Assembly: GCA_963804995.1 (NCBI GenBank)
Contig: CAWDSK010000005.1
Span: forward strand, 1,254,457-1,318,456
DNA from: an uncultured Acidobacteriota bacterium
GTDB taxonomy: Bacteria > Acidobacteriota > Terriglobia > UBA7540
DNA length: 64,000 nucleotides
Direction of reading: 5' to 3'
This document shows positions 50,901-53,900 of the stretch, piece by piece. Numbering within the stretch: position 1 is the stretch's first letter; each line of letters opens with the position of its first letter. A program made the position numbers.

Positions 50901-53900
50901 CTCCAGGGTGGTCAGCACTGGTGTGCGGGCGGGCCCTATAAGCCTGTAATTGCCCCGGATCAGGGTGCACGGCAGAGTTCGATTCTCTGGACCACTACCA
51001 TGGGGCTCGTAGCTCAGCCTGGAGTAGAGCGTCTCGCTACGAACGAGAAGGTCGCAGGTTCAAATCCTGTCGAGCCCTCCATGTTTTTTCGGGCGCGTGC
51101 GGCCAAGCGGATCGGCCACCAGCCTCCTAGGCTGGCGATATGTGAGTTCGAATCTCACCGCGCCTTCCATGCCGGGCTCATCTAACGGCAAGATGTGCGC
51201 CCGATTAGCGCAACATCGAGGTTCAAGTCCTCGGCCCGGTACCACTCCTGGGTGGTTCAACGGTAGAACGCGCGGCTGTTAACCGCGAAATGGGGGTTCG
51301 ACTCCCTCCCCAGGAGCCATATTGCGGGGCCAAGATGTTATTGGCGGCATACCCGCCTTTTAAGCGGAGAAGTCCGGGTTCGAATCCCGGTGGCCCCACC
51401 ATGCTGCGATAGCTCAGTGGCAGAGCCGCTGATTCGTAACCAGCAGACCGGAGTTCGATTCTCCGTCGCAGCTCCACGGTGACTGAACCCAAACGGTGCG
51501 GGACCTGACTGTGGATCAGGTGTTAGCGGGTTCGACTCCCGTCAGTCACCCCAAGATTCGGCCCTGTAGCGCAGACGAGCGCGGCTTCCTCCGAAGGAGC
51601 AGGTCATCGGTTCAAATCCGATCAGGGCCTCCAGCCGGCGTAGCTCAGTGGCAGAGCGCGTCCCCGGTACGGACGAAACCCGCGTTCGATTCGCGGCGCC
51701 GGCTCCATGCGGGCGGAATTCGAGCGGCAGAATACCCGACTCTTACTCGGCGAAGTGCGAGTTCAAGTCTCGCCGCCCGCACCAGGATTTGCCCCGTTAG
51801 CTCAGATGGTAGAGCGCCGGTCCTACAAACCGGAAGTCGGAGACTCGAACCCTCCACGGGGTACCAGATTTGGGGGCGTCGTCTAATTGGGAGGACTCCA
51901 GTCCTGCAAACTGGCAACGAGGGATCGATTCCCCTCCGCCTCCACCAAATTTGGGCGGTCATGGTTCAGTGGCAGAATCCGACATTGCCAGTGTCGGGGC
52001 GCGGGTTCGATTCCCGCTGACCGCTCCACGCGGCGTTGGTATATGGGGTGTGCCTCGGCCTTCCAAGCCGAAGAAGCGGATTCGATTTCCGCACGCCGCT
52101 CCAGATGTTCGGGATGTGGGGTAACGGGAGACCACCTGTCTTGGGGACAGGGCGGTGGAGGTTCAAATCCTCCCATCCCGACCAGGTTGACGGGAAGTGG
52201 CCTAGTGCTCAAGGCGCCGGTTTCGGGTGCCGGAGATCGCGGGTTGAAATCCCGCCTTCCCGACCAGATTATTGCGGGCGAGTGGAACGGACAACCACGC
52301 GAGCCTCATAAGCTCGAAGATAACGGGTTCGACTCCCGTGCCCGCTACCAAGTTTGTCCTCATCGTCTAGCGGCCAGGATGCTTGGTTCTCAGCCAAGTG
52401 ACGCGGGTTCGAGTCCCGCTGGGGATGCGGGGGCGTGGAGGAGTGGGAGTCCTCGCGGCACTGTCAATGCCGAGAACGCCGGTTCAAGTCCGGTCGTCCC
52501 CGCCAAGTTTTGTGGCCTGTTCGTCTATCGGAAGGATGGCTGATTTTCAATCAGTCGAGGCGGGTTCGACTCCCGCACAGGCTACCAAAGGAGCGCTATG
52601 CAAATCATCGACAACATTCCGGTGTGGGGAACCCAGGTTGACGAAGGTGCCTTGAAGCAAATCCGCACCTGCTACTGGATCTTCGGGCAGGCCGCGATGA
52701 TGGCCGATCACCACAAGGGCTACGGTGTTCCGATCGGCGGCGTCATTGCGCACGAATACTTAATCAGCCCCTCTGGTGTCGGTTATGACATCGGCTGCGG
52801 CAACAAAGCAGTGCTGACGGATGCCGACGCACACGACGTGCGTGCCAACATCGCCCGCATCATGGATGATGTTTGGTCAACGGTCAGCTTCGGGATCGGG
52901 CGCAAGAACCGCGAGGACGTTGACCACGAACTTTTCGAGAACGACGACGCTTGGCAGATTACCCAAGGGGCCAACAGCGCAGCATGGAAACTCACATCGC
53001 TGCGGGATATGGCTCGTGCTCAGCTTGGTACAGTTGGAAGTGGGAACCACTACGTGGACATTCTGCAGGACGAGCAGGAGCGAATTTGGGTTGGGGTTCA
53101 TTTTGGCTCCCGTGGTTTTGGCCACAAGATCGCCACGCGGTTTTTGAATCGAGCCGGCGCGAAGGACGATATGGACTCGGCTCCCGTTGCGCTTGATGCT
53201 CGAACTCAGGAAGGGCAGGACTATATCGCCGCGATGAAGCTGGCTGGCCGGTATGCCTACGCTGGCCGTGATTGGGTGTGCGATCGAGTGGTGAAAATTC
53301 TTGGCGCAAAGGCACTCGACTCAGTTCACAACCATCACAATTTTGCGTGGCAGGAGACGCACGGCGGAAAGTCGCTCTGGGTCGTTCGCAAAGGTGCAAC
53401 GCCAGCATTTCCTGGTCAGCGCGGATTTGTCGGCGGCACGATGGGCGAAAACTCCGTGATTCTGGAAGGCGTCGAGAACGACGATGCTTCACTGTCTCTC
53501 TACTCAACGATCCACGGTGCCGGTCGCGTCATGGGCCGGATGGAGGCCAAGGGCAAGCGGGACAAGGCAACCGGTGAGTGGAAGCGCCAGCCGAAGGTTA
53601 CCCAGGAGATGATGGACACCTGGGTGGGTGAAGCCAAGGTTGAACTGCGCGGTGGCGGAGTTGACGAATCGCCGCACTGCTATAAGCGATTACCGGAAGT
53701 CCTGGCCGAGCACTCCGCGTCGGTGCGAGTCCTGCACACGCTCAAGCCGCTCGGTGTTGCGATGGCTGGAAAAAACGAGTTCGATCCATTCAAAGACTGA
53801 GGGAGCGTCGTCCAATCGCATAGGGCACCCGCCTTCTAAGCGGTGAATCCGGGTTGAAGTCCCGGCGCTCCTCCCAAGCCTCGAAGAGGTTTTATGTCCG

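What a model noticed while it worked through the whole genome (the two positions that open the first line are those of the whole stretch)
50907..51000. Conserved long-variable-arm tRNA with anticodon UAU inside the tRNA array (candidate AUA missense / allo-tRNA-like gene) [...]
Between tRNA-Cys and tRNA-Arg of the array lies a 94-nt tRNA gene with encoded CCA, a 7-bp acceptor stem, 3-bp D stem, 6-bp anticodon stem, a long (class II) variable arm, discriminator A73 and anticodon UAU (isoleucine codon AUA). Normal tRNA-Ile is class I; a class II body is what seryl- and leucyl-tRNA synthetases recognise without reading the anticodon, so this tRNA is predicted to insert Ser or Leu (not Ile) at AUA, or to act as a non-translating tRNA-like RNA. 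It was kept in this genome although the array lost all its ordinary class II tRNAs (Leu, Ser, Tyr).
Evidence so far: ARAGORN at relaxed score draws the cloverleaf; at default score the same gene is called tRNA-Ile(tat), 94 nt, in relatives G502 and G451. Alignment of the orthologous stretch from 5 genomes of 4 genera (G000, G502, G451, G525, G152): the gene is nearly invariant (anticodon loop YUUAUAA with UAU identical in all 5; changes lie in acceptor pair 1-72, position 32 and the variable arm), while flanking spacers differ.
(Added by a program. Inside this text positions count along the whole contig: contig position 1,254,457 is position 1 of the stretch shown here. "Call 12" and the like, gene names such as g00115 and contig names such as C1 are that model's own, and its searches are not shown. 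The text may have been shortened before it was handed on; [...] marks where a part breaks off. The agent that wrote the report below was given it as the finding of a first reader that could run no searches.)

Follow-up and report, generated by a model that had tools for sequence, protein, structure and literature searches.

The report
Extra-armed AUA-reading tRNA in mobile array
This is a real, conserved transfer RNA gene with an unusual extra arm that most likely reads the rare isoleucine codon AUA as isoleucine, and it belongs to a widespread family, carried by phages and mobile tRNA gene arrays, for which I found no published description.

Summary
The 94-nt gene at 50907-51000 (+) is real. 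A covariance model built only from 86 phage and metagenome relatives scores it 91.5 bits (next best in the genome 38.8). On 98 distinct relatives the 7/5 cloverleaf with a long extra arm is 97.9% paired, and 22 of 27 pairs show compensatory changes. The anticodon is UAU in every member found with anticodon-free patterns. A73, encoded CCA, a compact D-arm and a G-A-Y motif in the extra-arm loop are conserved.

- This genome's anticodon loop is CCUAUAA (C33, not U33), which is why ARAGORN misses it.
- The D stem has 4 bp.

It is not a published 8/4 allo-tRNA(UAU). The Ser/Leu missense reading is disfavoured: A73 is not G73, there is no Leu-type D-loop, and the T4-like phage contigs carrying the family use AUA heavily at positions that behave as Ile.

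Best reading (about 0.6): a TilS-independent tRNA-Ile(UAU), here redundant cargo of a horizontally spread long tRNA array with RtcB and HNH genes in a Terriglobia genome. Charging is inferred, not shown. Earlier notes of this scan (e1-1068258, e1-5752543) describe the same family on other DNA.

The parts
50907..51000 (+). whole tRNA gene (94 nt) with anticodon UAU, long extra arm and encoded CCA
   Evidence: 91.5 bits against model R1, which was built without Terriglobia array sequences
50907..50913 (+). acceptor stem 5' strand (GGUGGUC); pairs with 50990-50996 (GACCACU); G1.U72
   Evidence: all 7 pairs show compensatory changes on 98 sequences
50914..50928 (+). A8, then the compact D-arm (GCAC-UGGU-GUGC), then GG
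   Evidence: A8 in 98 of 98 sequences and GG in at least 95 of 98; the third D-stem pair covaries (A-U, G-C, U-A) in hits of a pattern that does not fix the D-arm
50929..50947 (+). anticodon arm: 6-bp stem (GCGGGC/GCCUGU), loop CCUAUAA, C33 at 50936, anticodon UAU at 50937-50939, A37 and A38
   Evidence: C33 in 5 of 98 distinct sequences and U33 in 93; RNA-library contigs read mostly T at 50936
50951..50967 (+). extra (variable) arm: stem 50951-50955 with 50963-50967, loop CGGAUCA with the conserved G-A-U at 50958-50960
   Evidence: all 5 stem pairs have compensatory changes; loop G and A in 98 of 98, next base U in 85 and C in 13
50968..50972 (+). junction CACGG; its last three bases, CGG, are invariant
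   Evidence: C, G, G each in 98 of 98 sequences, although no search pattern behind these 98 sequences required them
50973..50989 (+). T arm: CAGAG-UUCGAUU-CUCUG (5 bp)
   Evidence: 4 of 5 pairs have compensatory changes
50997..51000 (+). discriminator A73 and encoded CCA
   Evidence: A73 in 98 of 98 sequences; C74 in 97, C75 in 98 and A76 in 97 of 98
50146..54669 (+). long tRNA gene array that holds the gene: 26 ARAGORN calls, two more seen only by Rfam (50146-50218, 51872-51944), and the target
52598..53800 (+). RtcB RNA ligase gene inside the array
   Evidence: Pfam PF01139, 240 bits
53894..54436 (+). HNH endonuclease gene inside the array
   Evidence: Pfam PF14279 and PF01844

Best explanation
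The gene encodes a functional elongator tRNA that reads AUA. It is most likely charged with isoleucine by the host IleRS through its UAU anticodon, A37 (probably made into t6A, not tested) and A73. Because it has U34, it needs no lysidine synthase (TilS).

It belongs to a distinct family. The features are a 7/5 acceptor/T branch, one linker nucleotide (A8), a 4-bp D stem with a UGGU tetraloop, an extra 26-44 pair that makes a 6-bp anticodon stem, a 5-6 bp extra arm whose loop always carries G-A-Y, and an invariant CGG before the T stem. Family members sit in the tRNA clusters of AT-rich T4-like phages, where AUA is a common Ile codon, and in horizontally spread long tRNA arrays.

In this Terriglobia genome it is redundant cargo of such an array, which holds RtcB and HNH genes. 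The host has its own full tRNA set and TilS.

Shown: the gene, its fold, its family, the invariant anticodon, the mobile context, and that AUA behaves as Ile in the phage carriers. Inferred: charging with Ile, decoding on the ribosome, and any role for the extra arm. I suggest the invariant A8, GG and CGG build a tertiary core that replaces the missing D-loop contacts, and that the G-A-Y loop is a protein contact. Neither suggestion is tested.
For: Family membership: model R1, built from 86 phage and metagenome sequences with no Terriglobia array sequence, scores the gene 91.5 bits (E 6e-22). The next matches in the window score 37.8 and 34.1 bits, and the best other match in the genome is tRNA-Sec at 38.8 bits.

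Fold: 97.9% of cells are paired against 73.8% in shuffles. 22 of 27 pairs have changes on both sides. The covariation score is 0.657 against 0.201 shuffled (0 of 500 shuffles reach it) and 0.06-0.14 when the partners are slid.

Anticodon: UAU in 58 of 58 viral hits and in 20 of 20 family members among the 22 genome hits of patterns that leave the anticodon free.

Ile-type determinants: A73 in 98 of 98 sequences and A38 in 95 of 98. A37 was required by my filters for that set, but it is A in all 58 hits of the anticodon-free viral scan. The discriminator, the anticodon and t6A37 are the strong Ile determinants (passages of PMC9976931).

Shared acceptor end: U72-A73 in 33 of 34 called family members and in 23 of 33 class I tRNA-Ile(GAU) genes of the same phage loci. 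The array's own Ile(GAU) also has G1.U72 and A73.

Codon evidence: over 58 phage loci (805 kb, 39% GC), ATA makes up 19.4 per 1000 codons. ATA aligns to I 60.4, V 15.7, L 10.5 and S 0.9%. ATT gives I 67.6, V 14.0, L 8.3; ATC gives I 66.8, V 13.0, L 9.4; CTA gives L 76.1; TCA gives S 59.1.

Array logic: related arrays cover all 20 amino acids, and this gene is their only UAU tRNA beside a single CAU tRNA.

Weak hint of transcription: contigs of two peat RNA libraries cover the gene and join it to its neighbours.
Against: - No aminoacylation or decoding was tested.
- A long extra arm is the hallmark of Ser, Leu and Tyr tRNAs. I found no report of IleRS charging such a body.
- The minor E. coli Ile determinant C4-G69 is not kept (G4-C69 here; against the passage), and the D-loop determinants G16, D20 and D21 have no counterpart in a 4-nt loop.
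- Many phage carriers also hold up to 3 CAU tRNAs, one of which may be tRNA-Ile2, so the family is not always the only AUA reader supplied.
- The codon test shows what AUA means to the phage, not who charges this tRNA. Its ORF pairs are not independent, and the alignments were made with ATA read as Ile.
- This genome's copy has C33 at a nearly universal U, which may weaken decoding.
- The RNA-library contigs may stem from DNA in the libraries, as the tool itself warns.
Confidence: 0.6

Rival explanations
1. Missense tRNA: the long arm and A73 make it a substrate of LeuRS (or SerRS), so AUA is read as Leu or Ser. This would parallel the nematode nev-tRNA-Ile(UAU), which is charged with Leu in vitro.
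For: The body has a long arm, as Leu, Ser and Tyr tRNAs do. A73 fits Leu (passage of PMC9976931). There is precedent: nev-tRNA-Ile(UAU) is misacylated with Leu in vitro (abstract of PMC4300185). Mukai et al. showed that allo-tRNAs insert Ser or Ala whatever their anticodon (passages of PMC5389517).
Against: A73 is invariant rather than G73, which argues against Ser. The 4-nt D-loop lacks the Leu-type D-loop and 15-48 elements. The phage carriers use ATA at 19 per 1000 codons at Ile-like positions (L 10.5% and S 0.9%, as for ATT and ATC), so a Leu or Ser inserter would damage the phage's own proteins. The anticodon is invariant, which a synthetase that ignores anticodons would not require. Even the nev-tRNAs gave no detectable mistranslation in vivo (abstract).
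Confidence: 0.1
2. Non-translating tRNA-like RNA. It would act as a decoy or sponge for anticodon nucleases or other tRNA-targeting defences, or as a regulatory RNA of the mobile element, and would be kept in arrays for that role.
For: The array sits in a defence and mobile island that holds RtcB, HNH, Mrr-like, SNF2 and methyltransferase genes. Santamaria-Gomez et al. speculate that array tRNAs may sponge toxin RNases (passage of PMC8421152). Mukai et al. found six allo-tRNA(UAU) variants inactive in E. coli translation (passage of PMC5389517). The G-A-Y loop and the CGG junction are invariant in ways ordinary decoding does not explain.
Against: It has a canonical 7/5 branch, a UUCGAnU T-loop, GG in the D-loop, encoded CCA, a 7-nt anticodon loop with A37 and A38, and an invariant sense anticodon matching a codon the phage carriers use heavily. 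It sits in line with ordinary tRNA genes in sets that otherwise lack a UAU decoder.
Confidence: 0.2
3. In this particular genome the copy is a weakened or dead allele. The U33C change disables the U-turn, and the gene persists only as a passenger of the array.
For: C33 occurs in 5 of 98 distinct family sequences. ARAGORN drops exactly the C33 copies. The host does not need the gene: TilS is present at 161.9 bits, a full tRNA set lies elsewhere, and ATA makes up only 4 per 1000 codons.
Against: All stems of this copy are intact, and it scores 91.5 bits over the full length. C33 is a recurrent trait of these arrays, not a lone lesion. It is present in 14 of 17 Ala(UGC), 14 of 15 Ile(GAU), 11 of 13 Thr(GGU), 10 of 14 Thr(UGU) and 6 of 8 Val(UAC) genes over 19 arrays, against 0 of 46 non-array tRNAs of this genome. 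C33 copies of this gene occur in further diverged sequences (L091, L172).
Confidence: 0.2

Closest known systems
   Same: UAU anticodon that reads AUA without lysidine; A37, A38 and A73; presumed charging by IleRS.
   Different: Those are ordinary class I tRNAs with a 4-5 nt variable loop and a normal D-arm. This family has a 5-6 bp extra arm with a G-A-Y loop, a 4-nt D-loop, one linker nucleotide and a 6-bp anticodon stem.
allo-tRNA(UAU) of Acidobacteria (Mukai et al. 2017, PMC5389517)
   Same: Same phylum, same anticodon, long extra arm, long anticodon stem and UGGU D tetraloop. Both lie in mobile or defence-linked surroundings. tRNA-Sec is the nearest Rfam model.
   Different: allo-tRNAs are 8/4 or 9/3, mostly have G73 or U73, and are listed without CCA. 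This gene is 7/5 by covariation and has A73 and encoded CCA. Its strings are absent from their three sequence sheets. True 8/4 allo-tRNA(UAU) genes from Acidobacteriaceae MAGs turned up (read) and are clearly different sequences.
nev-tRNA-Ile(UAU) of nematodes (PMC3333845, PMC4300185)
   Same: A long-armed tRNA that carries the Ile anticodon UAU.
   Different: nev-tRNAs are eukaryotic and are charged with Leu in vitro (abstract). Here the D-arm is unlike that of tRNA-Leu, and the codon evidence from carriers points to Ile.
[quoted passage not shown] 2021, PMC8421152)
   Same: A long one-strand array of supernumerary tRNA genes, spread by horizontal transfer, with HNH endonuclease and rtcB genes nearby (passages).
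   Different: That paper placed Acidobacteria among the phyla with only short accretive arrays, and its main text never mentions UAU (0 occurrences). It describes no long-armed AUA tRNA.

Membership tests
Long-armed tRNA(UAU) family of phage tRNA clusters and mobile arrays (noted earlier in this scan, e1-1068258) | full-length match to a covariance model built from other members | tested here: met
   R1, built from 86 sequences with none from the Terriglobia arrays, scores 91.5 bits over model positions 1-95 of 95; the next best in the genome scores 38.8 bits
Long-armed tRNA(UAU) family of phage tRNA clusters and mobile arrays (noted earlier in this scan, e1-1068258) | UAU anticodon, A73, G-A-Y in the extra-arm loop, CGG before the T stem, UGGU D tetraloop | tested here: met
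   all are present at 50907-51000; family frequencies are
allo-tRNA (Mukai et al. 2017) | 8/4 or 9/3 split of the 12-bp acceptor/T branch | tested here: not met
   it is 7/5: pair 7-66 (C-G 53, U-A 39, U-G 4, A-U 1, G-C 1) and the first T-stem pair (C-G 44, A-U 26, U-A 21, G-C 3, U-G 2, G-U 1) both covary; an 8th acceptor pair would be A.G
allo-tRNA (Mukai et al. 2017) | long V-arm, longer anticodon stem, tRNA-Sec-like D stem-loop with a tetraloop | tested here: met
   but the D stem has only 4 bp
allo-tRNA (Mukai et al. 2017) | discriminator G73 or U73 in most members | tested here: not met
   A73 in 98 of 98 sequences
allo-tRNA (Mukai et al. 2017) | listed among the authors' sequences | tested here: not met
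   0 occurrences of a 21-nt T-arm/acceptor string and of the 12-nt D-arm motif in their supplement
tRNA-Sec (Rfam RF01852) | score at or above the gathering threshold; 8/5 branch; UCA anticodon | tested here: not met
   26.1 bits against a threshold of 47; the branch is 7/5 and the anticodon UAU; the genome has a true tRNA-Sec elsewhere
tRNA-Ser identity (bacterial SerRS substrate) | long variable arm plus G73 | tested here: not met
   the arm is present, but A73 is invariant; the rule is taken from passages of PMC7609411 and PMC9976931
tRNA-Leu identity (bacterial LeuRS substrate) | A73 plus D-loop and tertiary elements (15-48, 59, D-loop alpha/beta regions) | tested here: inconclusive
   A73 is met; the 4-nt D-loop has no room for the Leu-type D-loop elements; charging was not tested
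tRNA-Ile identity (bacterial IleRS substrate) | anticodon A35 and U36, A37 (t6A), A73; minor elements C4-G69, C29-G41 and the D-loop | tested here: inconclusive
   the major elements are present; the minor ones are not kept (G4-C69); acceptance of U34 by IleRS depends on the species (titles of references 44 and 45); charging is not testable with these tools
L-array (Santamaria-Gomez et al. 2021) | long one-strand array; supernumerary to the housekeeping set; patchy distribution; HNH and rtcB genes nearby | tested here: met
   26 ARAGORN calls on the + strand between 50448 and 54669; 45 tRNA genes covering all amino acids lie elsewhere in the genome; the target occurs in 11 of 61 related genomes and in 0 of 24 outside the family; RtcB and HNH genes lie inside the array

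The most novel reading that the evidence does not exclude
The extra arm with its invariant G-A-Y loop, together with the invariant A8, GG and CGG core, is a recognition module rather than decoration. In this reading it sets the tRNA's fate independently of the usual rules. It might recruit a dedicated partner (a synthetase, a U34 or A37 modifier, or a phage factor), or shield the tRNA from anticodon nucleases. In the boldest form it would give the tRNA a non-Ile identity, so that mobile elements deliberately recode AUA.
Probability: 0.12. Interest if true: 0.85.

Novelty: new variant of a known kind. Interest (0 to 1): 0.6.

Why it matters
If the reading is right, this is a tRNA-Ile with a class-II-like body, a combination absent from the identity review and the non-canonical-tRNA review as far as I read their passages. 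It would show that phages and mobile tRNA arrays carry their own lysidine-independent way to read AUA, and that they have kept it across T4-like phages, Terriglobia, and single MAGs labelled Alphaproteobacteria and Nitrosomonadales.

The invariant G-A-Y loop and the compact core are concrete, testable candidates for a new identity or protection element. Standard tRNA finders label the gene by its anticodon alone or miss it, so the family is easy to overlook in annotation.

For this genome the gene is redundant cargo, so its effect on the host is probably small. The array-wide use of C33 may be the more surprising trait.

Tried and rejected
- **Mukai allo-tRNA:** rejected on the 7/5 covariation, A73 and absence from their tables.
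- **tRNA-Sec:** rejected (26.1 bits against 47; a true tRNA-Sec lies on another contig).
- **Single-sequence fold as evidence:** not significant. Its bulged extra-arm register is replaced by the register that covaries.
- **blastn of a phage-type member against 50,697 GenBank phage records:** no match at E 1e-3 or better. This says only that no deposited phage there holds a close copy.
- **First alignment:** one row (G002) had wrong coordinates and was ignored. That copy is identical to this genome's.
- found nothing because my spacing was wrong. It was corrected.
- **Look-up of earlier notes by sequence and by place:** nothing found.
- **Synthetase or modification gene beside the family in 58 phage loci:** the most widely shared neighbours I looked at were an RNase H-like protein, a clamp-loader subunit and the translational regulator RegA (3 of the 14 largest clusters scanned). 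No such candidate turned up.
- **The array's single CAU tRNA (52273-52350):** I could not tell by eye whether it is Met, initiator or Ile2. It has a U.U 1-72 mismatch.
- **RNA libraries:** parts of the array without cover in the four runs say nothing.
- **Literature:** searches for a bacterial or phage long-armed tRNA with UAU gave only the allo-tRNA, nev-tRNA, identity-review, tRNAscan-SE and eukaryotic tRNA-intron papers.
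Full report
**The observation.** At 50907-51000 on the + strand lies a 94-nt sequence ending in ACCA. It sits one base after tRNA-Cys(GCA) (50832-50905) and two bases before tRNA-Arg(ACG) (51003-51081). ARAGORN at default finds 27 tRNA genes in the window but not this one. Rfam at gathering thresholds reports nothing there. With relaxed thresholds the only notable match is tRNA-Sec at 26.1 bits, below the family's 47.

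The minimum-energy fold is a cloverleaf. It has a 7-bp acceptor stem (G1.U72), A8, a 4-bp D stem GCAC/GUGC with tetraloop UGGU, then GG. The anticodon stem has 6 bp and the loop is CCUAUAA. A long extra arm and a 5-bp T stem with loop UUCGAUU follow, then A73 and CCA. The fold energy alone does not stand out (z -1.64; 13 of 200 shuffles fold as well), so the case rests on relatives.

**Who carries it.** BLAST finds one copy in this genome. It finds copies in 11 of 61 genomes searched, this one included. Without G000 that is 9 of 28 in the same genus and 1 of 8 in other genera of the family. In 24 genomes of other families of the order and class it finds none.

Exact-pattern scans of one genome per species returned 16, 42, 22 and 16 loci. 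The true relatives there are almost all MAGs titled Terriglobia or Acidobacteriota. The exceptions are two MAGs titled Alphaproteobacteria and one titled Nitrosomonadales. So the window comes from a Terriglobia-type acidobacterium.

In all of the Terriglobia and Acidobacteriota loci the gene keeps its place in a long tRNA array...Thr-Trp-Cys-[X]-Arg-Arg-Ile(GAU)-Asn-Lys.... ARAGORN calls it tRNA-Ile(tat), 94 nt, in 24 of 27 loci. The three misses (this genome, twice the identical copy of a second species) are exactly the copies with C instead of U at position 33. The loop here is CCUAUAA, the change is at position 33 and not 32, and it explains the ARAGORN miss.

**A much wider family.**
The 80 that were fetched held 61 distinct sequences.
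- A scan of viral contigs that left the anticodon free gave 58 contigs, some 130-265 kb long. All 58 have the anticodon UAU, and the gene sits inside phage tRNA clusters, often Ser-Ser-[X]-Cys.
- The anticodon-free scan of genomes gave 22 loci. Twenty are family members, all with UAU, and two are unrelated.
- A third pattern that left the D-arm free gave 69 viral loci. Forty-three have the D-arm AGCACUGGUGUGCGG. Of the 26 others, several keep the stem through compensatory changes (GCGC/GCGC, GCUC/GAGC, GCAU/GUGC).

The near-invariance of the D-arm in my main alignment is therefore partly a product of the patterns. The 4-bp stem itself is supported.

Three gene clusters shared by many of the phage loci are an RNase H-like protein, a clamp-loader subunit and the translational regulator RegA, so these are T4-like phages. 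No GenBank phage record holds a close copy.

**Structure.** I counted the cloverleaf on 98 distinct sequences (alignment A2; counts).
- 97.9% of cells form standard pairs, against 73.8% in shuffles.
- 22 of 27 pairs show changes on both sides.
- The covariation score is 0.657, against 0.201 in shuffles (0 of 500 reach it) and 0.06-0.14 when partners are slid by 1-3 columns.

All 7 acceptor pairs, all 6 anticodon-stem pairs, all 5 extra-arm pairs and 4 of 5 T-stem pairs have compensatory changes. The 7/5 split is therefore real. The loop-closing anticodon pair is unpaired in 37 of 98 sequences. The sixth pair is the 26-44 position turned into a standard pair.

The extra-arm stem that covaries is 50951-50955 with 50963-50967, not the bulged register of the single-sequence fold. 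Several positions were required by none of the patterns behind these 98 sequences yet are invariant. These are A8, G and A in the extra-arm loop followed by U (85) or C (13), CGG before the T stem, and A73, each 98 of 98 unless stated. CCA is encoded in 97 of 98.

I checked it and it holds here, also in the second alignment of 86 sequences.

**Independent membership test.** I built a covariance model from 86 sequences that include none of the Terriglobia array type. It scores the window's gene 91.5 bits over its full length (E 6e-22). The next matches in the window are Lys(UUU) at 37.8 and Ile(GAU) at 34.1 bits. In the whole genome the next is the true tRNA-Sec at 38.8 bits.

**What amino acid.** Nothing here tests charging, so this step is inference.
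- Against Ser: A73 is invariant, whereas SerRS uses the long arm together with G73 (passages of PMC7609411, and PMC9976931).
- Against Leu: A73 fits, but the other Leu elements named in the review (D-loop regions, 15-48, 59) have no counterpart in a 4-nt D-loop.
- For Ile: the strong determinants listed in the review are the discriminator, the anticodon and t6A37, and the family keeps A73, A35, U36, A37 and A38. The U72-A73 acceptor end is shared with most class I tRNA-Ile(GAU) genes of the same phage loci (23 of 33, against 33 of 34 called family members) and with the array's own Ile(GAU).
- The strongest argument is codon use in the carriers. Over 58 phage loci (805 kb, 39% GC, 783 ORFs), ATA makes up 19.4 per 1000 codons. 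In 1506 pairs of homologous ORFs, ATA aligns with I 60.4, V 15.7, L 10.5, T 3.2, M 2.6 and S 0.9%. That is the same profile as ATT (I 67.6, V 14.0, L 8.3) and ATC (I 66.8, V 13.0, L 9.4), and unlike CTA (L 76.1) or TCA (S 59.1).

A phage that relies on AUA as an Ile codon would harm itself by carrying a Leu or Ser inserter for it. The caveats are that the pairs are not independent, that the alignments used ATA read as Ile, and that many carriers also hold up to three CAU tRNAs.

**The setting in this genome.** The host has 45 tRNA genes outside the window that cover all amino acids and Sec. It has a TilS gene at 161.9 bits against a cut-off of 93.6. Its G+C content is 58.5%, and ATA makes up about 4 per 1000 codons. 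The gene is therefore redundant for the host, like the rest of the array.

The array holds an RtcB ligase gene (52598-53800) and an HNH endonuclease gene (53894-54436). It lies among Prok-E2/ThiF, nucleotidyltransferase, Mrr-like, methyltransferase, SNF2 helicase, DUF6876 and transposase-like genes.

This fits the horizontally spread 'L-arrays' of Santamaria-Gomez et al. (passages of PMC8421152). They link such arrays with HNH and rtcB genes and with a response to translational stress. That paper listed Acidobacteria among phyla with short arrays only, and its main text does not mention UAU.

Contigs of two peat RNA libraries cover the gene. One is an 84-nt contig at 50908-50991. Others join the gene to its neighbours. 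They read mostly T at 50936. This is only a weak hint of transcription, since DNA can be present in such libraries.

**Comparison with the known.** The published allo-tRNA(UAU) species of Acidobacteria are 8/4, mostly have U73 or G73, and are listed without CCA (section 13, passages and supplement of PMC5389517). True examples turned up in Acidobacteriaceae MAGs and are different sequences. Neither a 21-nt string nor the D-arm motif of this gene occurs in their tables.

This family shares the long arm, the long anticodon stem and the UGGU tetraloop with allo-tRNA and tRNA-Sec. It fails their defining branch geometry.

It works like the class I tRNA-Ile(UAU) of some bacteria but has a different body. 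It looks like the nematode nev-tRNA-Ile(UAU), which is charged with Leu in vitro yet causes no detectable mistranslation (abstract of PMC4300185). The codon evidence here points the other way.

Four literature searches found no description of a bacterial or phage 7/5 long-armed tRNA with UAU. The library holds open-access papers only. Earlier notes of this scan (e1-1068258, e1-5752543) reached the same reading on other DNA. I had written mine down before seeing them.

**Verdict.** This is a real gene and a firm member of a wide, conserved family for which I found no published description. It is most likely (about 0.6) a lysidine-independent tRNA-Ile for AUA with an extra arm of unknown role. 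The missense reading is unlikely (about 0.1). A non-translating role is not excluded (about 0.2). The C33 of this copy is part of an array-wide trait and not, on its own, a sign of decay.

Noticed in passing
window 50448-54669 and related arrays (L013-L028, L054, L063, L091): Many tRNA genes of these arrays carry C instead of the nearly universal U at position 33. Over 19 arrays the counts are Ala(UGC) 14 of 17, Ile(GAU) 14 of 15, Thr(GGU) 11 of 13, Thr(UGU) 10 of 14 and Val(UAC) 6 of 8. In this genome 0 of 46 non-array tRNAs have C33, against 4 of 26 ARAGORN-called array tRNAs, plus the target and Ala(UGC) at 51872-51947. Ile(GAU) also has U37 (loop CCGAUUA). This may be evasion of anticodon nucleases, as proposed for phage tRNAs (PMC10264068, passages). 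That idea is not tested.
   Followed up: partly
window 50145-50722: A unit of about 300 bp is tandemly duplicated (93% identity over 234 nt). Each copy holds a tRNA-Thr(UGU)-type gene, about 160 nt of unassigned sequence and a terminator-like hairpin with a U run. No Rfam family matches apart from terminator look-alikes.
   Followed up: partly
window 51091-51169, 51171-51244, 52273-52350, 54439-54514: Four array tRNA genes called by ARAGORN (Arg CCU, Ile GAU, a CAU tRNA with a U.U 1-72 mismatch, and Phe GAA) do not reach Rfam's tRNA gathering score. Two genes seen by Rfam (50146-50218, 51872-51944) are missed by ARAGORN. The array tRNAs are generally atypical.
   Followed up: no
window 19163-19383: Group II intron domain match (RF02005, 170 bits) upstream in the same window.
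   Followed up: no
window 43534-49669 and 57099-63999: The array is flanked by defence and mobile-element genes: Prok-E2_D with ThiF, NTP_transf_8, an Mrr-like nuclease, a DUF6094 methyltransferase, an SNF2-type helicase, DUF6876 and a DUF4372 transposase-like gene.
   Followed up: no
L047, L056, L057, L060, L039 (MAGs titled Planctomycetia, Planctomycetota, Schlesneria and Planctomycetaceae): Other long-armed tRNA-like genes have a UAU anticodon, a longer D stem (for example GCGUC-UGGU-GACGC) and apparently longer acceptor stems. They look like allo-tRNA types outside Acidobacteria.
   Followed up: no
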